From Eledone cirrhosa (Eukaryota): a DNA stretch of 64,000 nucleotides. Of the stretch, positions 3,001-61,275 are shown one piece after another. Numbering within the stretch: position 1 is the stretch's first letter; the number at the start of each line of letters is the position of its first letter. Below the pieces are notes generated by a model, which was given only the letters and a program-made list of their open reading frames with translations, made no database searches and was not told the DNA's origin. Location: positions 120,032,001 to 120,096,000 of the forward strand of contig OZ024741.1 in assembly GCA_964016885.1 (NCBI GenBank), read 5' to 3'. The position numbers and the translations under genes were made by a program.

Positions 3001-4360
3001 GCCTTGGTACGGGTGCTACGGACGTTGCCCTCCCACTCACCGTGGAAGGGGCTTCTGCGTTTGTTGCCTGCCCTGCTCTTGGTAGCAGCGGACCAGGTAT
3101 TGGAAGGAGAGGGGCCTTCTTCTTCGCTGTCTTCTGCGGGCAAAAGGCACCGAGGTGACCCTTCGACCCACAGAGATAACATTTTAGCCGTCTACCTTAT
3201 ACGCTTATAGGGAGTTGGAGTCCTTCCTCGATGTCTATGATATCGGGGATAGCGTCGATACATTCCTGGTCAGTTTGTATAAGCATTTGCATGCCTATAC
3301 CTGACCAGTTTTCTCTCCCTATTTTTTCTACTTGCAGCATGGTCGTCCTGTTCTCGATTCCAGCAAGGACAGACGCGGCCAGCCAAGGTATGGGCACGCC
3401 GGGTGGGACCTGGGTCACTTTGACCCTCACAATTTTCTGCCCACAGTAGGAGGGCACCAAGACTATCTCCTCACTCTTTAGGGTTTCCAAAGAGTGAGAC
3501 TTTGCTTCCTGGGGGGGGGGGAGGCGAAAAGTACGTCTACTGTGGCGTACTTTCTGCCTCTGGTGATGTGGGTTTTGCGTGCCCAGACGCACCCCCAAGC
3601 CTTTTGGATTTGAGCCTTCGTGGCTCTCTCCACCGATGTGAGGTTTTTGCTTACGGTGCGGTAAGTCACCGTCCGTAGCTGCTGGTCCTTGAAAAAATCG
3701 GGTGGAGGTTTCAGGGAAACTCTATTTTCATTACTTGTCACCATGGCCCTTGCGACGGCCATCTCCTCCTCTGTGACTAACACTGTCTCGATATTTCGGG
3801 CGACACCTGCAAAAGAAGTGGTCCCTTTTTCAGCAGCACCACTATTGCTGCCGCTACTGGTCTTACTGGTGGTGCTGAGATCGCTGTTACAGGTATCAAT
3901 GTCATTGTTGATGTTTTTGTTGGCACAGTTGTTGGTGTTGCTGTTGTTTTCGTTGATACTGTTGCTGTTGTTACTGTTAGTGTGGCTGTTGTTATTATTG
4001 TTGTTTTTGTTGATACTGTTCCTGGATTGGCAGTATCGGTAGAGGGTCGGACGCCATGCTTTCCAGCATAGTTACGTCCCTTTACGATCTGAGTTCAAAT
4101 CCCGCCGAGGTTGACTTTGCCCTTCATCCTTACGGGGTCGATAAAATAAAGTACCAGTAATGCACTGGGTAATTGCTGGCCTTGTGCCTAAAGTAGAAAC
4201 AATTATTGTTGTTGTGGCTGTTGTTATTGTCATTGCTATTGTCGTTCTCGACCTTACCGCTGTTATTTTTGTTATTGTCGTTCTCGACTTTGCCGCTGTT
4301 ATTTTTGTTGTTGCTGTTGTTATTGATGGTGTTGTTGTTGGTGTTGTTGGTGGTGTTATT
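1..4360 (-). mobile_element. Tx1/L1-clade LINE copy A (ORF1 plus 5' part of ORF2; frameshifted; runs off the left edge)
   Basis: APE endonuclease ORF 1708-2262 (GSINARGLG, VVAISET, LVGDWN). RT N-terminus 592-888 (KSPG, NFRPITLLNAEFKILAKVLA). ORF1 pieces 2259-3783 resemble ORF1 of the copy at 36-38 kb. The Asn-rich ORF1 N-terminus is interrupted by a SINE at about 4025. Confidence 0.9.
4025..4208 (+). mobile_element. tRNA-derived SINE
   Basis: A-box-like TGGCAGTATCGG, B-box GAGTTCAAATCCC, body CCTTCATCCTTACGGGGTCGATAAAAT and tail GGCCTTGTGCCTAAAGTAGAAAC. Many near-identical copies in the window. Confidence 0.9.
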
Positions 4361-4361
4361 G

Positions 4362-4957
4362 TAACCTGCCCCATCAAAAGAATTGGTGGGAGCATCAACC
4401 ACCTCCCGTACTTGAAAAAGATCACATCTCAATCTTGTGGAACTTTAGCATCCAAACAGTCCGAAAAATAGATGCAAATAGACCTGATATAATACCGAAG
4501 GACTTTAAAAAGAGGGTATGCCTGCTAATTGATATGTCCGTTCCAACAGACTAGAATGTATCTATAAAAACATTTGAAAAATTGAGCAAGTATACGGACC
4601 TGGAGATAGAAATTGGAAAAATGTGGAAGTTGAGAACTAAACAATACCAGTGGTTGTAGGCGCTCTAGGAATGATACCTAAGGGGTCTAATGATTACTTA
4701 TCGCAAATCCCAGGAAACCCGCGTATAGGATAAATACAAAAGATAGTACTAATGGGAACTGCCCATATACTAAGGAAGATTCTGTCAATATAAGTACATC
4801 ACAAGTCTAAACACCTAAAGATGCATCTGTGTGTATGTGTGTTCTTTCTTGAACATGGCGGACCTTGTTGTCTCTTGAGGTCACTGGTTGTGAGTTGGTG
4901 ATAACTCGTATGAACATAAAGCAAGATAAATGCAACTGTAATAATAATAATAACAAT
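4362..4957 (+). mobile_element. Dong/R4-clade LINE 3' fragment (restriction-like endonuclease) with (TAA)n tail
   Basis: Manual translation gives ANRPDI...CLLIDMSVP...KLSKYTDLEIEIGKMWK...PVVVGALG...QKIVLMGTAHILRKILS. Ends in TAATAATAA. Confidence 0.8.
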
Positions 4958-5143
4958 AATTGTTTCAACTTTAGGAACAAGGCCAGCAATTACCCAGTAC
5001 ATTACTGGTACTTTATTTTATCGACTCCGTAAGGATGAAAGGCAAAGTCAACCTCGGCGGGATTTGAACTCAGTCCGTAAAGGGACGTAACTGTGCTGCA
5101 AAGCATGGCGTCCGACCCTCTACCGATACTGCCAATCCACCCA
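4958..5143 (-). mobile_element. tRNA-derived SINE
   Basis: Reverse complement of the 4025-4208 family. Confidence 0.9.
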
Positions 5144-12689: not shown

Positions 12690-13150
12690 TGTGTTATACC
12701 AACATGCCAAATTGGAACACGGGAGCTTAATAGATAACATAGAAATAAAGATCCTATCCTCACATAGAACTGACGCAACACAAATTACGGAGGCCATACA
12801 CTATAGATGATAGATCTAGCCTGAACAGAAAACTCGAATGAGATAGCAACAGCTCGCAACTCAACAACAGAAGATAGAATAGAGGGGAAAAAAGACACGA
12901 ATAACGAAAGATACAACCTCCACCATAGACGCACATAGACATGAAAAGCACACCGACCCCTCCCCTCCACATACACACAAAGTGAAGGCCCAGACACAGA
13001 CGCGTGTGCAGTCACGAATCACAAAAATACGCGCCACAAAAAAAAAAGACGGAGTAGAAGTTTAAGACCAGAAAGAATGGAAGGCACAAGAGAGAACACA
13101 GTCATTGAGAAGGTCACAGACGGTATGACGAAAGAACTTTGACGAACGAA
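12690..13150 (+). mobile_element. Penelope-like element 3' remnant (GIY-YIG C-terminus and HHR)
   Basis: Decayed translation HAKLEH..NIEIKILSSHRTDA..QITEAI matches the endonuclease tail at 18190-18360(-). HHR at 13101-13143. Confidence 0.65.
13101..13143 (+). ncRNA. Minimal type-I hammerhead ribozyme, U3:A8 variant
   Basis: GTCA-TTGAGAA-G-GTCACA/TATGAC-GAAA-GAAC-TT-TGAC; stem I GTCA/TGAC. Confidence 0.65.
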
Positions 13151-13154
13151 ATAA

Positions 13155-13333
13155 TAATTGTTTCTACTTTAAGCACAAGGCCAGCAATTACCCAGTACAT
13201 TACTGGTACTTTATGTTATCGACCCCGTAAGGATGAAAGGCAAAGTTAACCTCGTCCGGATTTGAACTCAGACTGTAAAGGGACGTAACTATGCTAGAAA
13301 GCATGGCGACCAGCCCTCTACCGATACTGCCAT
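13155..13333 (-). mobile_element. tRNA-derived SINE
   Basis: Reverse complement of the SINE family. Confidence 0.9.
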
Positions 13334-13667: not shown

Positions 13668-15324
13668 CAATGGTTGATCACATCTGGCCTGTATAACATA
13701 ATACCGTACTGCCTTGAGGCCACTTATGTCCCAGTGAGCCTGGTTCCTTTATATATATAAAAAAGACGTGTTTTCAAAGAACTGAGCAGCCCTGGATAGA
13801 TTAAGTTACCAATCTGCTGATACCAGGGATTTCTCTCTGTGATTTTGTCTGTACACTCGTTCTGAGAGAAAATCATTGCCGGTCAGCTGCAAAAGTATTG
13901 ACCAGTATAGAAACAATTCAGCGAAGATATTATTTCATTACATTTTCATATGTAATATGTAGCCTCAGCACCATTTCTTTTGCAGTTAAAAAATATTTTA
14001 AGAAACTATATCTTACAAGAGAGAATATAAATAACATTTATGTCGGCATGACAGCAGGAAAAAATGCCAAAGTGTTCATTTCATTTGAATTTATCTAGCA
14101 CATTACCTATGGCATCAAAAACCTGGCCTAAGAATAGTCTATCTATGTCTAAATTAAAAATTTCTATTAAAAATCTATATATGTGGGGTATACTATTTAA
14201 TTATTATTTTATATCAACAAGTAAATAAAGGAAATTGCTAGAATGATTTATAAACGTAGAAAAACATATGACGTCATAGTTTGTTTACAAAATCTACGAA
14301 GGTTTGAACGAAAATTTAAGGCTATAGAGAAAAAAAGTGAAAGGCTTAAAATATGCTGAGAAAACTGAATTAATACATTGTAGAATATAATGAAATATGT
14401 GAAAAAAAATGTGTGAAAAAAAATGTGTAAAAAAAATATATATGTTTAAGAAATTAACCGTTATTCGTGGAATATGTTATAGGAATTAGCGATATACTTT
14501 GTAGAACTGTCTTGAAGGATTTATCATTACAAAGACCAAATAAATCTGTACGTCTATTTATTATAGAGTTGAAATTCGAGATAATGGTAAATTTTTCAGC
14601 TAGACATAAATTACAAACACTAGATATGGAAGCATTTCAGTATGGAGAAGCGTTTCAGATTTTACACCAAGAAATTTTATAATTAATGTTTTTGTCTTTT
14701 AAAGACCAAATAAGTTCTGAGAGTGCGGTGTTGGTCCTTTTAAGTGGATATTCAAATGTAGAAGAATGATTATAGAGTCTTGCTTTAAAAGAGGTAGAAG
14801 TAGAGCCAATGTAGGTATAGGTATTTGTACTAGTTAGCACTTTACATTCGTATACTAGGTTTTTATCGAGACAGAAATTACTAAGAGGACAATTAGTTCT
14901 AATAGGGCAGTTGCATTTACGATTAAGATTATTAACAGAGTTATTTGCAAGCGGCCCAGGATTAATTATATTAGGAACTGGAGTGGTGGAATTAGCTAAA
15001 GGAGCTGCTAAAGTTTCTAGATTTACATTATTATTTGAAGTATTCCTCAAAGTTACAATTGACGTCGTATTTATACTTGTGTTATTTTGCCTAGCGTTTA
15101 CATTGCCGTCGGGCCTTACAGTGTTATTATTATGACTCTCGTGGTTGGATGCATATGAGTTATTATTTACTATTTTAGAATTATGTCTTGAGATAATTTT
15201 AGAAATGTTGGAAGTAGTGGAATATGAGAATTTAATAGTATGCTTATTGAAAATCTTACTATATTTATGTGAAGGAGGGAAGCTGTTATCTAAAGCCCTA
15301 AAAAATAATTTAGGGATGCCCTTG

Positions 15325-15448
15325 TCATTCTGAGTTCAAATTCCGCCGAGGTTTACTTTGCCTTTCATCCTTACGGGGTCGATAAAATAAAATACCAGTA
15401 ATGCACTGGGTAATTGCTGGCCTTGTGCCAAAAGTAGAAACAATTATT
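15325..15448 (+). mobile_element. 5'-truncated SINE inside the PLE
   Basis: B-box through tail of the SINE family. Confidence 0.85.
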
Positions 15449-15902
15449 AATAACTGAAAGAGAGAAGGGAGCGTTGTACCAAAGGATATTTTTATATCTA
15501 GGTCTCCTTCCTTTTGCTAGTGGTATTATTAATACTAGCTACATTACTATAAGTTCTGCCAAGATTAGTTTCCTTAGTGTTTCTAATTGTGTCTGGATAC
15601 CCAGCCCTAGATAACGCATTATTATAATAGTTGGCATTAGCTTCGAAGATATCTTTATTAGAGGATAAATTAGAAATTCTTTTTTCTACACTTCTGACTA
15701 TAGCAGTTTTAACATTATTAGGGTGGTTAGATTTAAAGTTAACGTAATTTAGGTTCTCATTATCCTTATGATATGGGTAATATAGGCCAGTATCTAGATT
15801 AAGGGATATATCAAGAAAATTTGCTAATTTATCATTATTCTCGAATTCTATTTTTAAGTTAAGATGCTTAAATAGTTCAAGTATATTTTTCTTAATAATA
15901 TT

Positions 15903-16087
15903 TGTTTCTACTTTTGGCATAAGGCCAGCAAATTACCCAGTACATTACTGGTACTTTATTTTATCGACCCCGTAAGGATGAAAGGCAAAGTTAACCTCGG
16001 CGGGATTTGAACTCAGTTCGTAAAGGGACGTAACTGTGCTGCAAAGCATGGCGTCTGACCTTCTACTGATACTGCCAATCCACCGCC
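15903..16087 (-). mobile_element. Full SINE with 18-bp TSD inside the PLE
   Basis: ATTTTTCTTAATAATATT is duplicated at 15885-15902 and 16088-16105. Confidence 0.9.
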
Positions 16088-17112
16088 ATTTTTCTTAATA
16101 ATATTAAAGTTTACTTTGTTGCAATTAGAGACAGTAAAAAGAGCATCATCACGATAAATACCACCGCGAAGTTGAGGAATTTTCCGTTTTAAAGAGTTCA
16201 AGATGAAAATTCCAACCAAGTCGGTCAATTGAGCTGAATCCGACGAACTCATGGTGATGTCGAAATTGTTGGAAGTATCCGCTCTTGTCATTGTTAAATT
16301 CCAAGATTGTTTTCCTTGCGGTGAGAATGATGTTTAATTCATCAGTAGTGATGTCCGAGTATTTTAAGGCATATGAGAGAGCCTTGTTAAGGAGTGAAGG
16401 GGAAATAGAAGAGTAATAGCTAGCAATGTCTAGTTGAATCAATTTTAGTTTGTTTTTATTATTCAGGTCATTGAACCAGTATATCACATCAGAACAACCC
16501 GACCATAAATTCAATTGAGATTTAGAGCTAACCTGTGGGATAATTCTATCCAAGATGGATTTACTAACGACCCCCAGGTCAGATTTAGAAGAGGCAATTA
16601 GTCTTACAGCCAAGTCGGTTCTAAAATTTCATTTGTGATCCTTGAGACTAATCCTCGGAATTCTTAGGAAGAAGGGTTCTGCTTTTTTCTCAATACCGAG
16701 TTTGGTTATAATCTCATATGCTTCACTATTAATAGAATCAAGATTATCGTACGTAGTTTTACGATAATTTTTTCTTAATTCTTTAAGGATAAGGTTATTA
16801 TATTTATCCTTACTTATGCCATATAAATTATTTGTTTTGTCAGAATGAACTAAAACGTTTTTAGAAGAATTAAGGTCATTAATTTTATTCTTAAGGTTGA
16901 TAAGGTGTCCCTAACGTCGATAAGGGTTTCTTTTGAATTTAAGTCCTCGTATAATTTTAGTTAATTCATTTTCAAAATGTGCTAAGTTTTTATTAAAGGA
17001 AGGATTTCTTCTGGAGTTAAATAATGAATCGAGGTTATTAGGTTCCTTTCTATAAAAATTTCCTTTTAAGCGCTGGTCATGGAAATGTGAGATCCATCTA
17101 AACCTCGGCACA

Positions 17113-17352: not shown

Positions 17353-17601
17353 GTAGTTCCACAACAGTTAGTTCACCATACCGAGAACAAATGTTTCACC
17401 TCATTCGGATCCTCAGCTTGATAGGGACTCAGGATCCAAAACGTACTTGAGTGACGAGAGAAGACACCATTGTCGGGTCGATTGTGTATTGAGGATCCGA
17501 ATAAGGTGAAAAATTTGTACTCGGTATGGTGAATTAACTGTTGTGGAACTACTTCTACCAAACTCTACTACTACGGATATAACCGACCAGTGATCTACTA
17601 T
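17353..17601. repeat. Foldback HHR cassette between (TA)n tracts
   Basis: Inverted arms 17353-17415 and 17490-17553. HHR on the minus strand at 17382-17420: CAAG-CTGAGGA-TCC gaatga GGT-GAAA-CA TT TG-TT-CTCG. Family member at 43348-43500. Confidence 0.75.
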
Positions 17602-17625
17602 TATATATATATATATATTTATGGG

Positions 17626-17719
<94 letters not shown>

Positions 17720-19236: not shown

Positions 19237-20198
19237 TTGAAAAAGGGGGAAGAGTTTCACACAAATCAAAGTTTATATGGACTGACTTATGTATTATTCT
19301 AGTTGTGAGAATTTTTTTTTTTGTTCTATTTGTATATGTACTTTCTTCGCTGATTTTTCTAATCAAAAGAGTTCTCCTATTTTTATATCCACTATTGCTC
19401 ATGTCATGCGATATACTCTCCCGTGATTTGATAAAAAATTAGAGAAATCAAAATTATCTTATCGTAATTACAACCATGATACGTCTCATCAGGTAAACTC
19501 GTTTTGTTTCTTCTTTCCTATTTTCAACTTTATGATGATCCGTAATATTTATATGGATATAAAGCAAAGTAATGATCGAGAGATATCATAGAAATCAGAG
19601 CGGAGTAATTATTTGGGGGATAAGAAGCTGCATAATAAGCATCTAAAATATATCTGAAACTAAATTAGAAGTTTACGGTTGATGATTCGAACTGCTGGGT
19701 AGAGAAGCTAAGAAAATATTCTTTATATCCGGTAAGCATGTTAACCGGAAATCAAGTGGATTTATATCGCCAGGAAATGAATGGTCTCATATTTCGGACA
19801 TTTCAAATATATTCAACATTATACGATATTTATTACTGAGATTTTCAACAAGAAACATATTTATTCAAAAATAGGGTTTTAAACATAAAAAATATTTTCC
19901 CTCTACCGTGCTACACATTATAGCTTCATGTCACTCTGGGATCTCCATTATATAAAAAAGAGCACAATAATGTTTTTCTAGGAATTCAGTTGCTCGTCTT
20001 ATAAAAGGCGACTGAGTGGAGACAATGGTAGGGTGCTGTACTAAATATGACTGAAATTCCTTTGTGATTGTTTTGGGGTTAGGGTTGGGGTTAGGGTTAG
20101 GGTAATTAATAAAATGAACCTCATTACACCGAGATCGATTGAACTGGCTTTATGAGGTTCCTCTGTAACAGTATAATACATAATTATTTGTCAATAGA

Positions 20199-20372
20199 AG
20201 GGCAGCGGATTGGCAGTATCAGGCGTCAGACAACATGCTTTGCAGCATAGCGTTTATGATCTGAGTTCAAATCCCGCCGAGGTTAACTTTGCCTTTCATC
20301 CTTACGGGGTCGATAAAATAAAGTACCAGTAATGTACTGGGTAATTGCTGGCCTTGTGCCAATAGTAGAAAC
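20199..20372 (+). mobile_element. SINE with 17-bp TSD
   Basis: AATTATTTGTCAATAGA at 20182-20198 and 20373-20389. Confidence 0.9.
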
Positions 20373-21879
20373 AATTATTTGTCAATAGATTTACAAGGAC
20401 GTGAATCACAGCTAGTCGAACAAAATAAACATATGCCGCAAAGTCATGAAAGAAGAGCTTTATTTGAGAAAAAAAATTGGCATGAATAATCTTGAGACGC
20501 TTCTACTCAATGAATCCACCGTCGGCATCGATGACTTCTTCAATACGAGGTCTGAAACGATGACATTTGTCCACAGATTTATAAGGACGTGAATCATAGT
20601 TGGAATAGAAGAAACATAGAAACATCATTTTATATACATTTTGTAGAATTAAACATTCGACATGTCGCAAGATCATGATAACGTCTTTCCAGAAGCCTGG
20701 TTAAAATGTTTGAAATTAGGGAACTCAGCCGTGTACTAGCGGTTGATTTAAGCTCTCCCTGTTACGATAGCTTTGTCAGAGGTTCGGTCGTTTTCATTTA
20801 CTAAATCACCACATGTCATTGGCGTTTCGAATCACACGATCGGCAATGGTGTCCTCTCTCCTCACTCAACTACGTTTTGGATCCCGAGTCCCTACCGCAT
20901 AAATTGGAGGCAACACTCTCGAATTTGGACACAGGATAACCATGTTGGTATACACGAACATCATTACTTCATTATGTAGTCGGCATAAGTACAGTATAAC
21001 CAGGAAAAGTTGGTGGACTGGCAACATGGCAACTGGAAAGGTAGTTCCACACAGGTCAACAGTAAAAGCTGGACCGACGGCCCGGTTAAGATGTTTGGAA
21101 TATCATTTGATGAAGGTCTTCATGTGGATAGAAACTAAGAGGAGGTTACGAGCAGGTTGGCCACTCTCATTCAAACATGAATTGAGAGGCAGCTATTCCT
21201 GAAAGATTGGGTTGTGTTGAAGAGAGGAGAGAAAGAGGGGGAGAGAGAGACGGGGTACGAAAGAGACAGAGAGAGTGAGAAAGTGAGGATGATATACAGA
21301 GGAAGAATCGACCGCAGTACTTGATTGGTACTTTAGTTATCGAAAATATACGATATGTTTACGAATAAACATTTGGATGCCTTTAGCTATGAATTTTAAA
21401 AGGTGATGGCAGAGCGCCACATAACGAGCTCCAACAGAAGCGAAAATAAATTACCGACAGCTTTTTCTGGTTTATCAGACGTTGTCAAGATAATGCACCC
21501 CTCTATCTCGCTTACTGCTGAAGTCAAACTATAGGCAAATATAGTTTTAACGCTTATGTATATGGACTGATTATATTCACTTTCGTACGAAACTGCAGGC
21601 TGGCTCGGTCTGAACAAGAAATAGAATTGAGGTGTTCGCTCCAGCATAGCTATATACAAAATATAAGAATGTAAAGTTTGAATATCGGATATTATACGAT
21701 ATGTTTTACGAATAAACAATTGAATTTCCCTTTGTTTCTGCTGGAACTCGGTTAATTATTTTACTCGATATTATTGTAAATCCCTACTGTCTCCGTCTTT
21801 GTATTGTTATCTGTGTTTGGCCCTTGTGGCCAATGAGAAAGAAATTAATATTATTATTATCATTATTATATCAAGCATG

Positions 21880-22155
21880 GTAGATTGGCAGTATCGGTAG
21901 AGGGTCGGATGCCATGCTTTGCAGCAAAGAGTTACGGACTTTTATGGTCTGAGTTCAAATCCCGCCGGTGGATTGACAATATCGGTAGAGGGTCGGACGC
22001 CATGCTTTGACGCATAGAGTTACGGCCCTTGCCATTCTGAGTTCAAATCCCGCCGAGGTTAACTTTGCCTTTCATCCTTATGGGGTCGATAAAATAAAGT
22101 ACCAGTAATACACTGGGTATTTGCTGGCCTTGTGCCAAAAGTAGAAACAATTATT
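21880..22155 (+). mobile_element. SINE with duplicated tRNA-like head
   Basis: The head (through GAGTTCAAATCCCGCC) occurs at 21880-21967 and again from 21970, followed by body and tail. Confidence 0.85.
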
Positions 22156-22184
22156 ATTATTGTTATTATTATTGTTGTTATTCC

Positions 22185-23700
22185 TTGAATCTCAGTCATT
22201 GATGTTGGTTAACAGTCATTGAACATGGCCGTCAGCTTCGGGTGGAGGGATGTTAAATGTTTAATCCAATACCCCTGCACACCATCTGGGCCTGGTGATT
22301 TCCAGTTGGTTAGTTTTTTGGCTTGCCCCTTAAGAGTTTCAACTGTGATACTCAAATCAGTTTGTTGTTGTGCCTGCTCACCGATCTCCCTCTGTACTGT
22401 CTCAATCCACCCTGCCTGGGCATTGTGTCTAACATCCTGCTCCCATATTCCTCTCCAGAATGTTTTAGTTTGTTCCGCCCCAGGGATCAAGTCGTTGCCT
22501 CTTTCTTTCCCCTCAAGCTGTCCAAACAGCATCTTCTGGTTGTTGTCGAACATGCGGTTCTGTTTATACTGACTGACTCTGTTCTCGTATCGCCTGATTT
22601 TTGCACTCTTTGCTACAATGCGTTGCTTCAATTCCTCTATGATAATATTTAGCTTTTTACTCCTAGTTTTGTATTTTATTTCCAGTCTATTTTATAGTGC
22701 CTATGTTTTTTAGTGTCCCATTCAGTAGTGACTCAAGCTTTCCTATGTCATTCCTCATTTCCCCGATTTGCCCACTCAGTCGCTTCTTCCACCACGGCTC
22801 TGCTCTTTCTTGTCTGTTGTTTCCTCTCGCTTTTATACCAAGTAGTTTCCTCACCGTATTTGCTGTTGCTTTGAGGATATTGTTGCACTGGTGAAGGCTC
22901 CTCGCCTCAAGGTATGGGATGACTTTGTTTACCTTAGCTGTTGTTTCTTTTAACTTTTTCCTGTCTACAAATCTTAGGTTCATAGGTCTCCCACTATCAT
23001 TGTTCAATTCATCTACCACTAAATTTAGGATGTCAACCGAATCTTGTCCTAGCCCGTCAGCATTCATCTCCTCAGTGGCCGTATCTCTGTTCCAGGTATT
23101 ATTATTTATCTCAGTATTCAGATCATTGTCTGCTTCGGGTGGTTCCTCCGTTCTCAGGACCTCTTCACCTTCATTTCCCACTGGCTCGCTTGTCTGGCAT
23201 ACTACACCCGCCATCTCCAAGCCATTCTCTCTGCTCAGTTCCTCCAGTTCCAGCTCGCTTATCCACCCATTAGTTCTTATTACCCGAGCCTGCCCGGCCA
23301 ATTTTTGTTCATCTAATTTAAATAAACCAATCTCGTTCCAGATGTTATGCATCCGTCTCCTGTAGCCCCTCTCCTTGGGGTCACTTTTCAGGTAGCATTG
23401 CATAACAGTTCTATTCAATTCTTTCGTCCAGTTGGTTCTGGCCCCTTTCCTTCTTCTTCCTCCAACATCAGCAGTATTTGGTTGACAGTCAGGTTCCTGC
23501 TGCTGAGCCAGGGGGCACCTGTTGGGTGAGAGTCTGTCACATGACGTTCTAGTCTCCATTTCACCGTTATTCGAACTGTTTATGTTCGATATTTAAACAC
23601 TCTTATCGAGGATTGGCGAATGTATAGTTACATAGCCATCTGTGGGTCCGCCATCCCACTTGGCCCTTGTGTGGCATTATCACCACGCTGTATACGAACA
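22185..23700 (-). mobile_element. Dong/R4-clade LINE, 5' part
   Basis: ORF 22687-23559 (WTKELN..MQCY..RGYRRRMHNIW..EQKLAGQARVI) and ORF 22209-22631 (NWKSPGPDGVQGYWIK, start of RT). Confidence 0.85.
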
Positions 23701-24642: not shown

Positions 24643-24691
<49 letters not shown>

Positions 24692-24900
24692 TGATTGGCA
24701 GTATCGGTAGAGCATCAGACACCATGCTTTGCAGCACAGAGTTATGGTCCTTTACGTTCTGAGTTCAAATCCCGCCGAGGTTAACTTTGCCTTTCATCCT
24801 TACGGGGTCGATAAAATGAAAAACCATTAACCTACTGGGGTCGATTCATTCGACTTTCCCCTCCCCACAAATTACTGGCCTTGTGCTCATACTAGAATTT
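24692..24900 (+). mobile_element. SINE (long variant) in (TAT)n
   Basis: Family match with an extra internal segment GTCGATTCATTCGACTTTCCCCTCCCC. Confidence 0.85.
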
Positions 24901-25841: not shown

Positions 25842-25876
<35 letters not shown>

Positions 25877-25880
25877 AATA

Positions 25881-26155
25881 TATAATAAACAATACAATAT
25901 AATTACCTCATTACCAGAGGTTTCCCGAATAAGACGAATACAAGAAACGTCCTCATTCGTTCGTCAGACAAGACAAATTGCCTTGTCTGACGAACGAACG
26001 AATGAGGACGTTTCTTGTATTCGTTTATTCGGGAAACCTCTGGTAATGAGGTAATTATATTGTATTGTTTATTATACATTAAATTTAGCTCTGTAACTTA
26101 CATAGAGCACTCTTCACTCCTATAACCTTTTCGATTTTCAACGGAAACTTCAATA

Positions 26156-26158
<3 letters not shown>
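25881..26158. repeat. Near-perfect palindrome of two back-to-back hammerheads, between (TA)n tracts
   Basis: Arms 25881-25972 and 25982-26076 with a 9-nt spacer. Each arm reads CTTGT-CTGACGA-stem II-GAAA-CC tct GG-TA-ATGAG. Confidence 0.85.
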
Positions 26159-26191
<33 letters not shown>

Positions 26192-26292
26192 TATTGAAGT
26201 TTATTTAAATTGTTGGGATAGAATAAGCAATATATATATATATATATATATATATTATTTACTATTATTGTAATATTATCATTTCAATGAAT

Positions 26293-26359
<67 letters not shown>

Positions 26360-27326
26360 TTGAAATGATCATAGTATAATAAACCTTCTAAGGAATTACA
26401 CCAGTCCAGCCTCCTGCTTTTTAAAATAATTAACTCCGTACTTGCATCACCATCTACACAAACGAAGACGGGTGAGTTGCATTACGTTTGAGTGCTATCC
26501 ATAATATTACATCGAGCTTGACCATACGGAATTATCAGTTCTATCCAGTGGTGAACCAACAAAGCTAAATAAATAATGCTCCAGGAAATGTCGAGCGCTT
26601 TCAGATGTAATAAGGATAAGGGGCCCTGACTCCAGTGTACAGTTATCGCCAGCATGGGACTAACTACACACCATTCAGATTTTGGCTGCATTGAGCTTTA
26701 TCTACCGCCCACCTGGACCATACATTGCTGCTTCCCTATCGAGAGTATTCAGACTCCGTCAGACCTCATAGATTCTTCAAAAAATCAACATATTCTACTA
26801 TACTCTGTATTGTATTGACTGAATTATCTATCCTGGGGATTCACATTGAAAATTAAGACTCGAACATACACTAGGTATCACCTGATGCCATTCCAACTCT
26901 TCCATCCTCTATATCTATATGTATAACCTTGTATTCTCCGACCGTGCTATATATTGTACACTTACTTGACCTTGATATGTATTTTATTTCTCCTGTATTT
27001 TGATTTCTTCGATATGTTCTTATATACTTCCTTTTTACTCCCTACATCACCACCTTAGGTATGGCTGTATTTTATTTATGTATTTTACTTATGGTTTTAT
27101 TTATGTATTTATTTACTCGCTTTACTCTCATTATATACTTATCCTTGTACTCATTAGCACACGACCCTAGAATATTACTCTCTGTACCCCTATATCTGTT
27201 TATCTTTATTCACTCCCCCTACCCACCCAAGAATCACACTACATATAACCCAGACTAACTGGGGACTAAATATAGTCTATTGACACATTTCGTCAGATTT
27301 TGCCACTGTTAAACTTCACATCACGG

Positions 27327-27853
27327 GTGTGAATAACTAATAATCGTTTGGTACACGCGATGATCCGACGGATGTGGCGGCTTTCCCGACTGCACGCCAG
27401 GCGCTCGGGTCGATCAGCCTTCCTAGAGTGCTTGGAAAAATAAATTTCCCCTTTTTTCGGTAAACGATAATACTCGGAACGGCTGCTTCGCCCTGGGGCC
27501 CTGTCAGACTTGGAACCCGCCGCGCCACCGGTTATTGACCGCCAAACAGTACCTTTAAATTCTAGGCTTAACCATAACTTTTAACTTTATCTTGCCTCCT
27601 TCTACTAGCACTTAACTAAATCCCCCACCAGTGTGAATAACTAGTAATCGTTTGGTATATACGATAGCCAGCCGACGGTGGCGCACTTCCCGCTAGCACA
27701 CCCGACGCTTAAGACAGTTAACATTCCTGGAGTGCTCGGAAAAATAAATTTCCATTTCTTTCGCTAGACGATAATACTCGGAACGGCTGAAACGCCGTTG
27801 GGTCCCGGGCTGGCCGGGGGTCCGCGACGTCGCTGGTTATTGACCGCTAAGCA
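27327..27853. repeat. Two diverged ~222-bp CpG-rich tandem modules
   Basis: 27327-27548 and 27631-27853 align almost without gaps and share several invariant blocks. Confidence 0.9.
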
Positions 27854-28402
27854 TGGGCTTAATCTTTACTCTATATTCTACCCTGAAACTTTATCGTGAC
27901 TATCTATAATACACTTAAACTTTTCATAAAAGCCTCCCTCTGTAAATTCTTTAACTAAATCTCACAACTTTAAACCTAAACTTTATTTTTCTAATTTCAT
28001 CTTAAATGGCATTTTCTAACTCTAAACATAAATTTAACGCTTCTAATACTTAATCGTAATTTCTGTCCATACATTATACCATGCAGACACCTACTATATA
28101 TTACTATATATAGCTTTGTTAAAGATATATGTTCTTTGAAAAAATATGTTTCGCGGCACTTTCTAACACTCATGACCAGCTTGATTGTAACCTGATCTCA
28201 ACGCTGGCCTCTGTCTTTGACGGGGTGGTAGTAGTACACTATAAACCTACGCCCCTTCACCAGATGGACATAAGTAGGCTTAATAATCACCACTTGAGGG
28301 CGGCTGACTGGGGTAGAAGATGCTAAATGTTCGGTCGCCCGCATGTTTCTGATTTTTCAGCCCCATCGATTTTGTCTATTATATTCCTTTGCTATATCTC
28401 GA

Positions 28403-28459
28403 ATATCTGATGATGTCACCGGATTCATACTGAACCCGTCATTGAAATGATCATAGTAT
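28403..28459 (+). ncRNA. Type-I hammerhead ribozyme
   Basis: ATAT-CTGATGA-[..GGATTCA tac TGAACCC..]-GAAA-TG AT CA-TA-GTAT. Palindromic ATGATCAT stem III. Confidence 0.75.
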
Positions 28460-28504
28460 AACAAACCTTTTAAGTAATAACACCTGTCTAGCCTCCTGTT
28501 ATTT

Positions 28505-28582
<78 letters not shown>

Positions 28583-28588
<6 letters not shown>

Positions 28589-29330
28589 CAGGTAAAATTC
28601 CCAAGATCCATGGTCGAGTTCTCTCCAGCGGTCTCTGTCTTTCATCATTGCCGCCATGTCCTGCGTCTCCAAGAGACTTGTGTCTGTCGTTAGAGCAACA
28701 ACATATGTCAACCTCGGTCTCCCCCTTCTAGTGTGTCCGTGTTGGGTCCCCCACAGGAGCACTGAATGCAGTGTCAACTCTGAATATCGGTGAGTATGTC
28801 CAGCTAACCTCAGTCCCCTCTGTGTTACTTTCGAGCTGAGTTTCGGGAGGCTCCCGTACAGCTCTGAGTTTTTCATCCTCAGTGTATACTGATTAATGTT
28901 CAGAGCCATCCTCAGCATTCTCGTGTAGCACCCATCTACAACCTGAGTGAGTTTCTTGGTCAGTGTCCAAGTCTCAGACCCGTAAAGTAGCACAGACTCC
29001 ACTTTAGCAACGAAGAGACGGATGTTCAGGTCTTTACGAAGGACCGACTTCCACACCGATCTCAAACTGTGACACGCCGCTCAGGCTTTGCTCCTCCTCT
29101 CAAACACATCATCCTCTGTGTTCCCAATCTTTGCTCCAATATTCAGGAAGTCCTCAACCAACTCTAGCGGCTTCCCGCCTACATTCATAATCTTCTCTGG
29201 CTTCTTAATGTTCTTTACCAGATACTTCGTCTTAATCGCATTCATTCTTCATTTTCAGCCCCACACTCATCGACAGCATCAACTCCTCTGCCTCCTTCAC
29301 TGTGTTTGTCACCAGAACTAGGTCGTATAT
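28583..29330 (-). mobile_element. RTE-type LINE 3' fragment
   Basis: LLYGSETWTL..YTRMLRMAL..LRLAGH..RRGRPRLTY. Ends in (TA)n. Same family at 50518-51110. Confidence 0.8.
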
Positions 29331-58235: not shown

Positions 58236-59362
58236 AGATCAAAAGATGGTTAAAGGAGTTCCATGTATTTTATTATGCGCATTTCAAAAACAAACATCAT
58301 CATGCAATAATATTTGTGTTTTCATCAGATAAAACAGGAGAACATGATATGAAGGCTAAAAAACACTTGTGGATAGTGCAGTTTTAAATCAACATATGAA
58401 AAGTGGTTTTAGATTGATGTGTGATATTGGGAAAAATATTTTATTTAGAGAGGGGGGGAAGGGTGAAAAAGGGGAGGAGATGAGAGGGAGAGATGGGTGA
58501 TAGAGAGAAAGAGATAGTTTTTATAACTGAGAGGAGATATATTGTTTTACATAGAGAGGTTGAAAACCGTTGGAAGATAATGTATAAATTAAAAAAAATT
58601 TGAAAATTAACGAAGGGAGGATATGTGCGAGGAAAAAATATTTTATTTAGGGAGGGGGGTGGAAAGGATGAAAAAAGGGGGAGGAGATGAGAGTGAAGGT
58701 GGAGAGGGAGAGATGGGTGATAGAGAGAAAGAGATAGTTTTTATAACTGAGAAAAAGATATATTGTTTTACATAGAGAGGTTGAGAACCGTTGGAAGATA
58801 ATGTATAAATTAAAGGAATTTGAAAATTAACGAAGGGAATTTATGTATGAAGATAGAGAGAAAAAAAAATAATAATTGTGGATAAATATTCTAACGTCAA
58901 AAAAAGTGTATGTTGATAAGTATTGTGGCAATTTCAAAATTAACGAAGAGAAAAATTATTAAGGTTTGTGTGTAGAAGGATTTGAGAAAAATAATGTGAA
59001 GTTAAAGTTTGTATATTGAAGGAATTGATAATATATGCGAATAAAGAGTTAATATGTATTAAGAATGAGTTCGTTGATGGGGAGAAAAAAATAATAAATT
59101 AAGGATGAAATTGAGATTAAAAAGATTTATGATAGAGAGAAAAAATAATAATGATTGCGGATGAATATTCTAACGTCAAAAAAACAAATGTATATGTTAT
59201 GAAGGATTTTACAAGGTGGAGATAGAATGAGGGTAATGAGTAAACAAGTATTATAGAGTGTATAATGCTCTTTAAAGTAAGGTAGGAAGATGGGTATATT
59301 TTAAAGAGGTGTATGTATATGTGCCTTTGAGAAAAGATTCTAAATTGATAAAGAATTGAATA

Positions 59363-61125
59363 TTAACTGTATACTTTGTGAAAAGTCCTATGGAATTTAT
59401 GCAGGCAGATAGAAAACAAATCTGTACGTCTATTTATTATAGAATCTAGGTTAGAGATAATGGTAAATTTTTCATTTAGGCAGAGATTACAGATTTTAGA
59501 TAGAGAGCTGTTCAAGTATGAGGATGCAGAAGAAACCTTCTTCCAAAAGATGGTATATTTAATGTTTTTGTCTTTTAAGGACCATATGAGTTCTGAGAGA
59601 GCAGTGTTGGTTCTTTTAAGTTTGTATTTGAAAGATGAATGATGATTATAGAGACGAGCTTTAAAAGAGGTGGAAGTGGAGCCAAAATAGGTGAAGGAAT
59701 TGGTGCTAGTTATAATTTTACATTCATAAATTAAGTTTTTATCGAGACAATGGTTGTTGAGAGGACATTTATTTTTAATGCGGCAGTTGCAATTAGAGAG
59801 ATTATTAATGAGTGACCTAGTGTTATCTATAGAAGGAATTGGATTGGAGAAGTTGTTTGCGATAGGAATAATAGGAATAATAGTTTCTTGATTTAGAGTT
59901 GGATTATGAACATTTAGCGAAGTTGTGTTTGATGTTGTATTTGGGTTTGCAGAAGTTAGCCTAGGGTTTACAATGACGTCGGGAGTACTATTACTGTTAT
60001 TATGAAATTCAATGTTGGAAGGAAGAGATTTAGTATTTAGTATTTTATTGTTGTGTTTAGAGATGATGTTGGAAATATTGGAGGATGTAGAATAAGAAAA
60101 TTTGATGGTGTGTTTGTTAAATATTTTACTATAGATATGTGAGGGAGGGAAGCATTTATTTAAGGCACTAAAAAATAATTTAGGAATATTGTTATTAATA
60201 GAGATGGAGAAAGGAGCATTATACCAGATTATGTTTTTGTATCTAGGTCTTTTATTAAAATTATTGGAATGATCATGATTAATTATTCTACTGTAAGTTT
60301 TTCTAGAATTTGTTTCTTTACTATATTTGATTTTATCTGGATAGCCGGCTTTAGAAAGTGCGTTATTATAGTAATTGGCGTTAGCATCAAAGATGTTTTT
60401 ATTAGAGGATATGTTAGATATTCTTTTTCCAATATTACTAACTATAGCATTCTTGATATTGGTAGGATGGTTAGATTTAAAGTTAACATAATTTAGGTTC
60501 TCATTGTTTTTATGGTAAGGGTAATATAGGCCAGTGTCAAGATTAAGAGATACATCCAAGAAATTAGCTAGTTTGATACTATTATCAAATTCAATTTTTA
60601 GGTTATGTTGGTTAAAGAGATTACGTATATTGTTCTTAATAATATTAAGGTTAACTATATTGCAATTTAGGATAGTAAAGAGTCCATCGTCACGATAAAT
60701 TCCACCGCGAAGTTGAGGAATTTTCCGACTCAAAGAGTTCAAAATGAAGATACCAATTAAATCAGTCAATTGGGATGAATCGGATGCTCCCATTGTGATG
60801 TCGAAGTTGTTAGAGGTATCGGCTCTGGTCCAATATTCGTTGTTGAACTCTAGGATGGTTTTACGTGCGGTGAGGATGATGTGAAGTTCATCTGTGGTGA
60901 TGTCAGAATATTTAAGTGCGAAAGATAGAGCATTATTGAGAAGTGAAGGCGAAATGGAGGAATAGTAGCTGGCAATATCAAATTGAATAAATTTTAGTTT
61001 GTTTTTATTATCCAATTTGTTGAACCAGCCAATCACCTCAGAAGTACCAAACCATAAATTTAGGTTCAAAGAAGAGCAATTAGAACTAACCTGTGGGATA
61101 ATTCTATCCAAGATGGCTTTACTCA
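59363..61125 (-). CDS. Penelope-like element RT-GIY-YIG, uninterrupted ~590-codon frame, 5'-truncated
   Basis: QFDIASYYSSI, GIYRDDG, Asn/Pro/Thr-rich linker, CNCRIKNKCPLNNHC..IY..YFGST..FKARLYNH..CNLC..EK..CLH. A long AT/GA-rich 3' region continues leftwards. Confidence 0.9.
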
Positions 61126-61275
61126 ATAATGCATACAAATACATACATCAACTCTCATATTATATATATATATATATTCATGTATGTATGTGTGCGTGTT
61201 TATGTGTGTATGTGAGTGTACGTATGTGTGTGCGAACGTAGGTGGGTGCGAGTGTGTGTGCGTGCGTGGGTGTGA

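What the first reader, a model, noticed from the sequence alone, without database searches (positions are those of the whole stretch)
26357..28505. ~2.15-kb non-coding, hammerhead-terminated, direct-repeat-bounded element (large retrozyme-like unit) in (TA)n
Seen: a ~65-bp direct repeat at both ends, (TA)n on both sides, and no credible ORF. The left repeat begins inside the HHR, just upstream of GAAA, and spans the cleavage site, while a complete HHR sits at 28403-28459. A short inverted copy of the terminus (ATCATTTCAATGA, ~26278-26290) lies across the left (TA)n. Known: PLE terminal repeats carry minimal HHRs, and retrozymes are non-autonomous HHR retroelements producing circular RNAs, typically about 1 kb or less. 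Inference: this is a slightly-more-than-unit-length cDNA of a ~2.08-kb circular or tandem RNA mobilised by PLE RT. It would be unusually large and carries structured cargo.
Basis: partly seen in the sequence, partly recalled or inferred. Interest (0 to 1): 0.85.

Follow-up and report, generated by a model that had tools for sequence, protein, structure and literature searches.

The report
Large non-coding Penelope passenger with hammerhead
This is an old copy of an abundant 2.1-kb non-coding repeat that carries a Penelope-type hammerhead motif (cutting untested) and two predicted RNA folds matching no Rfam family, and it was likely pasted into a TA repeat by a Penelope-like retrotransposon enzyme; a circular RNA stage is possible but not shown.

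Summary
There is a 66-nt direct repeat (88% identical, 2082 nt apart), (TA)n on both sides, no ORF and no decayed Penelope-like (PLE) RT. The sequence is a multi-copy family: 4036-4379 contigs were laid per run and cover all 30 bins. In reads of two further samples the hammerhead core shows no listed variation, and family letters improve helix I and helix II (40 of 56 rows seen). The motif is the PLE minimal type, lacks the G10.1-C11.1 pair, and is untested. The 66-nt repeat is only the overlap of a longer pseudo-LTR with two common 3' ends (about 28507 and 26575). Two 225-nt internal modules keep one predicted fold despite 26% divergence and match no Rfam family. Best reading: a non-autonomous PLE copied from an RNA continuous across the ribozyme site, slightly more likely an uncut linear transcript than a circle. 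No RNA run was available. The scan had not noted this family, but had noted smaller 310-478-nt relatives in kind in this genome. Verdict: new variant of a known kind.

The parts
26265..26290 (-). 26-nt inverted copy of the element's left end, across the left TA tract; origin open (local fold-back or stub of a second arm)
   Evidence: 88%, E 0.009; inverted repeat I20; the nearby tract 26158-26189 also has 13-nt palindromic flanks
26291..26356 (.). left (TA)n-rich tract, inferred target
26357..26422 (+). left copy of the 66-nt direct repeat: 3' half of the hammerhead, predicted cut site 26373/26374
26357..26575 (+). 5'-truncated pseudo-LTR; 26575 is the family's commonest listed 3' end, with AATAAA at 26568
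   Evidence: table 7: 64, 71 and 64 contigs run from 26575 into (TA)n
26576..28353 (+). non-coding body, with G-poor stretches like a PLE 3' UTR
   Evidence: covered by other copies
27327..27548 (+). structured module 1: predicted long rod capped by a multi-way junction with two short hairpins, one with AATAAA as its loop
   Evidence: z -4.3, 0 of 200 shuffles
27631..27853 (+). structured module 2: 74% identical to module 1, same predicted topology
   Evidence: z -3.5, 0 of 200 shuffles
28403..28459 (+). PLE-type minimal hammerhead motif, predicted cut after 28455; decayed in this copy; U.U at the base of helix II
28439..28507 (+). right copy of the direct repeat, ending at the family's second, AT-rich 3' end
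   Evidence: 29-30 contigs end at the equivalent place, 26416; 170 and 195 reads continue beyond it
28508..28585 (.). right (TA)n tract, also abutting the 3' end of a neighbouring LINE-like remnant on the minus strand

Best explanation
This is one old, mutated copy of a multi-copy, 2082-nt non-coding repeat with a Penelope-type hammerhead motif in its terminal repeat, likely copied into a (TA)n tract by a Penelope-like RT-endonuclease supplied in trans, from a probably uncut linear read-through RNA. Shown: the anatomy, the absence of coding, family abundance, two common 3' ends at (TA)n, conservation of the hammerhead core in the rows seen, and two modules that keep one predicted fold. Inferred steps: (1) a source copy with a pseudo-LTR at each end is transcribed on the + strand; (2) a PLE protein binds this RNA and nicks (TA)n; (3) reverse transcription starts inside the 3' pseudo-LTR at one of two preferred sites, here the AT-rich one 52 nt past the ribozyme site; (4) it reads through the uncut ribozyme, the body and the upstream pseudo-LTR, and stops 17 nt beyond the second ribozyme site, which leaves the 66-nt overlap. 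The two modules are likely selected RNA domains; protein binding or control of 3'-end formation are guesses.
For: Family: 4379, 4036 and 4047 contigs laid in X1-X3 (one sample), all 30 bins covered, mostly 90-95% alike. In two further samples 2232 and 2162 raw reads lie on 226 nt. Hammerhead constraint: 28406 is C in 866 of 887 and 816 of 830 reads, turning this copy's G.U in helix I into G-C. A G after 28437 (491 of 896; 501 of 895) makes helix II symmetric. 28415 G>A (309 of 992; 318 of 974) keeps pairing with 28442. The other listed variants inside the motif, 28430 and 28431, lie at the apical loop. None of the 40 rows shown falls in 28407-28413 or 28444-28459. PLE type: short helix I, long helix II and palindromic loop 3 match PMC4209133. 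The same GAAA-palindrome-TA anatomy follows the PLE ORF remnants of this window (47702+/44308-, 58328-). Two 3' ends and internal initiation match PMC11167929, where uncut RNA was the dominant substrate. Four opposite-strand joints in other copies fit PLE inverted arms (PMC8557442). Non-coding: a profile of 120 PLE homologs scores the element at E>=0.5 and the window's decayed PLEs at 2e-125 and 1e-38; 0 of 13 element ORFs hit Pfam.
Against: No RNA data and no whole genome. No record spans the whole unit. The pseudo-LTR-to-body junction (26575/26576) is crossed by one listed piece with only 28 letters on its left, under the tool's 31-letter rule (32 of 12662 pieces shown). No autonomous partner shares sequence with the element in the window. 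G10.1-C11.1 is absent, and 16 of 56 variant rows were not shown. Module covariation is thin: 3 two-sided changes among 70 pairs, reached by 69 of 500 shuffles, and one cross-module arm pair is nearly as stable as the native ones (-55.9 versus -58.3 and -61.3; the other is -38.4). Linear versus circular template cannot be told from DNA.
Confidence: 0.5

Rival explanations
1. Large retrozyme: the hammerheads cut a tandem transcript as dimers, the 2082-nt monomer is ligated to a circle, and a PLE RT copies the circle for 1.03 rounds.
For: Both ends lie away from the cut site and the copy crosses it twice. The family keeps the core. Both repeats share a minority letter (A at 26395 and 28477, where 462 of 564 and 517 of 620 reads have T), weak support for one template. 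PMC4209133 proposes circles for PLE tandems. Unchecked notes of this scan argue the same for smaller units in this genome.
Against: The motif is minimal-type, and such motifs cut poorly in vitro (PMC4209133); 8 of 9 tested Xenopus elements did not cut (10.64898/2026.07.22.740005). Helix II lacks the G-C base pair. The unit is only modestly self-paired (about 53% paired; z -1.8). No multimer was seen, though the contigs could not show one. In PMC11167929 no RNA reads ended at the hammerhead site.
Confidence: 0.3
2. The body is the long 3' UTR of an autonomous PLE, 5'-truncated or internally deleted, which came to lie behind a short pseudo-LTR copy; the 2082-nt unit was rarely or never mobile as such.
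For: Summed contig depth is lowest near the 5' end of the body (281-715 at 26639-26857) and higher further 3'. The body's G-poor stretches resemble the 1.4-kb stretch behind the PLE remnant at 46285-47690. Loose ends at 27840 show copies with different rod arms.
Against: There is no (TA)n between pseudo-LTR and body here, whereas 64-71 contigs end there in TA. One other copy crosses the junction (28 letters on the short side). No coding trace lies at the 5' end of the body.
Confidence: 0.15
3. A DNA-level repeat (satellite or segmental piece) spread by recombination, with an inactive hammerhead relic.
For: The surrounding 25862-26382 region is a run of palindromes, a sign of local rearrangement.
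Against: Recurrent 3' ends into (TA)n, inverted joints, depth rising steeply just upstream of the hammerhead, and pairing-preserving variation.
Confidence: 0.05

Closest known systems
Non-autonomous Penelope-like elements with pseudo-LTRs (Chlamys derivatives such as MRC1; PMC8557442, 12 passages and section 6 read)
   Same: Non-coding, partial tandem that forms a pseudo-LTR, microsatellite target, 5' truncation, inverted arms.
   Different: Those are from green algae and most Chlamys lack a canonical hammerhead. This one is in an animal-type genome, has a hammerhead and two structured modules, and its partner was not found.
Animal non-LTR retrozymes (PMC7229834, 12 passages read; bioRxiv 10.64898/2026.07.22.740005, parts 1-3 of 5 read)
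   Same: Non-coding unit with a type I hammerhead, proposed to ride PLE enzymes.
   Different: Here the unit is 2082 nt, 1.03 units are present, the motif is minimal-type, and no RNA is shown.
PLE minimal hammerheads (PMC4209133, parts 1-2 of 4 read)
   Same: Helix I of 4 bp, long helix II, palindromic loop 3, position in the pseudo-LTR, many solo or truncated copies.
   Different: U.U followed by G.U or A-U at the base of helix II instead of a bulge followed by G10.1-C11.1.
Poseidon PLE of Anolis, PAc (PMC11167929, parts 1-2 of 4 read)
   Same: Two internal RT start sites give two classes of 3' ends; AT-rich target.
   Different: PAc is autonomous and its tail is 30-40 bp. Here the two ends are about 150 nt apart.

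Membership tests
Non-autonomous PLE | no RT/EN coding | tested here: met
   the profile's positive controls scored, Pfam's PLE control did not
Non-autonomous PLE | partial tandem forming a pseudo-LTR | tested here: met
Non-autonomous PLE | multi-copy, with 5' truncation and recurrent 3' ends in microsatellite | tested here: met
   tables 2 and 7
Non-autonomous PLE | whole architecture repeated at other loci | tested here: inconclusive
   piecewise colinear cover only; no record spans the unit
Non-autonomous PLE | terminal homology to an autonomous PLE | tested here: inconclusive
   none within the window; genome not held
PLE minimal hammerhead | conserved core, helix I of 4-5 bp, long helix II, palindromic loop 3 | tested here: met
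   40 of 56 variant rows seen
PLE minimal hammerhead | G10.1-C11.1 pair after a bulged base | tested here: not met
   U.U then G.U or A-U
PLE minimal hammerhead | self-cleavage, as dimer or protein-assisted | not testable with these tools
   needs in vitro transcription
Animal non-LTR retrozyme | two or more consecutive units with complete hammerheads | tested here: not met
   1.03 units and one full motif at this locus; other loci could not be seen
Animal non-LTR retrozyme | small unit (under about 1 kb) | tested here: not met
   2082 nt; the published ceiling partly reflects the search setting
Animal non-LTR retrozyme | highly self-paired circular RNA fold | tested here: inconclusive
   z -1.8, 1 of 19 shuffles as stable; this copy is mutated
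Animal non-LTR retrozyme | expressed circular RNA | not testable with these tools
   no RNA run was offered
Any Rfam family (for the 225-nt module) | covariance-model match | tested here: not met
   two chance-level hits, neither in the modules

The most novel reading that the evidence does not exclude
The family makes a 2.08-kb hammerhead-closed circular RNA, about twice the largest animal retrozyme unit in the papers read. Its duplicated 225-nt rod with a multi-way junction would be a new RNA domain that recruits the telomerase-like PLE reverse transcriptase; the junction recalls telomerase RNA CR4/5 (from memory, untested).
Probability: 0.12. Interest if true: 0.8.

Novelty: new variant of a known kind. 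Interest (0 to 1): 0.42.

Why it matters
Protein-free passengers of Penelope-like elements are known, so the class is not new. This one is much larger than the animal examples found in the searches and keeps two copies of a fold with no Rfam match. With no ORF to constrain it, what the family conserves points at the cis signals a PLE enzyme needs. The two 3' ends and the double crossing of the ribozyme site give a simple test of an open question: whether PLE partial tandems come from circles or from uncut linear RNA. Supplements were not read (Craig 2021 consensus files, Cervera 2014 alignments, Li 2026 tables) and could hold a related family.

Tried and rejected
Whole-genome search: none is held. 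Exact-pattern scans gave 0 matches in metagenome contigs, viral contigs and prokaryote genomes; distant blastn of the modules against phages gave none. No RNA holder was listed, which says nothing about expression. Rfam gave no hammerhead or other credible family, and no tRNA was found. Decayed PLE RT was rejected; Pfam did not hit the window's own PLE ORF either, so the custom profile is the informative test. A third module or a relative elsewhere in the window was not found. A minus-strand fold of the modules is less favoured. A scrambled-order hammerhead, noted elsewhere in this genome, does not apply: the order here is ordinary type I. The inverted 26-nt copy as a true second arm is doubted, because it stops at neither family 3' end and lies beyond a TA tract; 2 of 27 TA tracts have 13-nt non-microsatellite inverted flanks, and these two lie about 120 nt apart. 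Summed contig depth was not used as a copy number. Run X4 (organism B, 26 contigs, 16 of 30 bins) shows related pieces, but what it is was not established. PMC5785218 is not held. The host species was not determined; 'octopod' comes from unchecked earlier notes.

Full report
Observation. A 66-nt direct repeat (26357-26422 and 28439-28504; 88%; spacing 2082) is framed by (TA)n-rich tracts. No frame is longer than chance gives: 95 aa against a shuffle mean of 99. A type I hammerhead-like motif lies at 28403-28459, with the predicted cut after 28455, and the left repeat starts 17 nt before the equivalent site. Rfam does not call it, and this copy alone prefers another fold. The inverted terminus is 26 nt (26265-26290). 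The window is repeat-rich animal-type DNA, and no whole genome is held.

It is a family. Four runs hold parts of it. In X1-X3, which are one sample, 4379, 4036 and 4047 contigs were laid, most 90-95% alike, covering all 30 bins. Listed pieces of other copies are colinear over 26548-26770, 26811-27460, 27473-27900, 27669-27963, 28001-28257 and 28119-28386. None spans the unit, and only 32 of 12662 pieces were shown. Two further samples (RAD libraries, biased) gave 2232 and 2162 reads on 28290-28515, with depth about 280 at 28306-28313 and about 1040 at 28442-28449. Short hammerhead-end copies therefore outnumber longer ones, and depth rises steeply just upstream of the motif. I give no copy number.

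The ends. The 66-nt repeat is an overlap, not a true terminal repeat. In one search, 64, 71 and 64 contigs run to 26575 and then into (TA)n, and 29-30 contigs stop at the place matching this copy's right end (24 of 1245 loose-end rows shown). In one search, 170 and 195 reads continue past 28511 with sequence that by eye matches the window behind the left repeat. The family thus has a pseudo-LTR with two common 3' ends about 150 nt apart. This copy used the inner one and is 5'-truncated inside the upstream hammerhead. Four listed joints change strand, as in PLE inverted arms (PMC8557442, section 6). Two internal start sites that give two kinds of ends were shown in vitro for the Anolis PLE (PMC11167929, parts 1-2 of 4).

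The hammerhead. Family letters improve the fold. C at 28406 (866 of 887; 816 of 830 reads) gives four Watson-Crick pairs in helix I. An extra G after 28437 (491 of 896; 501 of 895) makes helix II symmetric. G>A at 28415 (309 of 992; 318 of 974) keeps its pair, and a loose-end row of 9 contigs mends the one C.C mismatch. Variants at 28430 and 28431 lie at the apical loop. None of the 40 rows shown (of 56) touches the core. Short helix I, long helix II and palindromic loop match the PLE minimal hammerhead (PMC4209133, parts 1-2 of 4), but the conserved G10.1-C11.1 pair is replaced by U.U, so activity is uncertain. The same anatomy follows PLE remnants in this window, at 47702+/44308- and 58328-. 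[quoted passage not shown] It has 231 homologs; I did not place it on a tree, and it shares no DNA with the element.

No decayed RT. tblastn with 211 window ORFs gave only chance hits (best E 0.049). A profile of 120 PLE homologs scored the element at E>=0.5 and two decayed PLEs of the window at 2e-125 and 1e-38. None of 13 element ORFs hit Pfam.

The cargo. Two modules (27327-27548 and 27631-27853) are 74% identical: 53 of 60 positions in the core, 35 of 61 and 39 of 59 in the arms. Each folds on the + strand better than all 200 shuffles (z -4.3 and -3.5). Module 2 takes module 1's topology at a cost of 1.1 kcal/mol: a long rod capped by a junction with two hairpins, one with AATAAA as its loop. 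Of module 1's 70 pairs, 58 can form in module 2 (43 unchanged, 12 one-sided, 3 two-sided). Against: two sequences give little power (69 of 500 shuffles reach the score), and one cross-module arm pair is almost as stable as the native ones. There is no Rfam match, no third copy in the window and no match in the public contig scans. Selection on structure is likely; the function is a guess.

Mechanism. Neither end is at the cut site and the copy crosses that site twice, so a cut linear monomer was not the template unless the enzyme jumped (inference from sequence). An uncut read-through RNA or a religated circle both fit. I favour the linear form (0.5 against 0.3). Minimal motifs cut poorly (PMC4209133), uncut RNA was the main substrate for PAc (PMC11167929), 8 of 9 Xenopus elements did not cut (10.64898/2026.07.22.740005, parts 1-3 of 5), and the unit is not strongly self-paired as a circle (z -1.8, 19 shuffles). 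A truncated UTR of an unseen autonomous PLE remains possible (0.15), because the pseudo-LTR-body junction is crossed by just one listed piece, with 28 letters on its short side.

Comparison and verdict. The element works like a non-autonomous PLE (PMC8557442) and is kin to animal retrozymes (PMC7229834, 12 passages), but it fails the retrozyme tests of tandem number and size at this locus. PMC8490949 (12 passages) describes hammerhead-bearing satellite elements in Schistosoma; I saw no unit like this one in those passages. Nine paper searches listed no 2-kb animal example; supplements were not read. The scan holds no look-alike by sequence or nearby, but holds unchecked notes on 310-478-nt hammerhead repeats with fixed ends in TA in this genome. 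Verdict: real, a new variant of a known kind, interest 0.42. The modules are the part most worth following.

Noticed in passing
window 25862-26087: Two short back-to-back arms, each with a hammerhead-like motif (cores 25987+ and 25967-, helix I of 9-11 bp), both cut off just upstream of the motif: likely a two-armed insertion of another PLE family.
   Followed up: partly
window 44184-47888: Inverted two-armed PLE remnant, arms 98.7% identical over 1.66 kb, GIY-YIG-like piece at 45844-46284, hammerheads at 47702+ and 44308-, two different 3' ends into (TA)n.
   Followed up: partly
window 58328-61147 (-) and 14508-16574 (-): RT plus C-terminal GIY-YIG PLE with a 594-aa open stretch and a hammerhead about 1 kb downstream; a decayed relative at 14.5-16.6 kb.
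   Followed up: partly
window 25215+, 25690+, 17969-, 62665-: Further solo hammerhead-like motifs.
   Followed up: no
window 17353-17645 and 43310-43482: Small (TA)n-flanked repeat holding hammerhead core words; it may belong to the scrambled-order families noted elsewhere in this genome.
   Followed up: no
window 26146-26201: TA tract with 13-nt perfect palindromic flanks, near the element's own inverted terminus; a fold-back hot spot or an assembly artefact.
   Followed up: partly
window 28586-29326 (-): 3' end of a LINE-like element (RTE-like from recalled motifs) abutting the right TA tract; a relative at 50518-50799.
   Followed up: no
window 4023-4213, 4949-5139, 13150-13332, 15893-16084, 20198-20379, 21967-22185, 24657-24839: A short interspersed repeat of about 185 nt in many copies, 82-95% alike.
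   Followed up: no
window 27605-27632: A branch-point-like word, a pyrimidine tract and CAG just before module 2, resembling a 3' splice site (by eye); not matched before module 1 in this copy.
   Followed up: no
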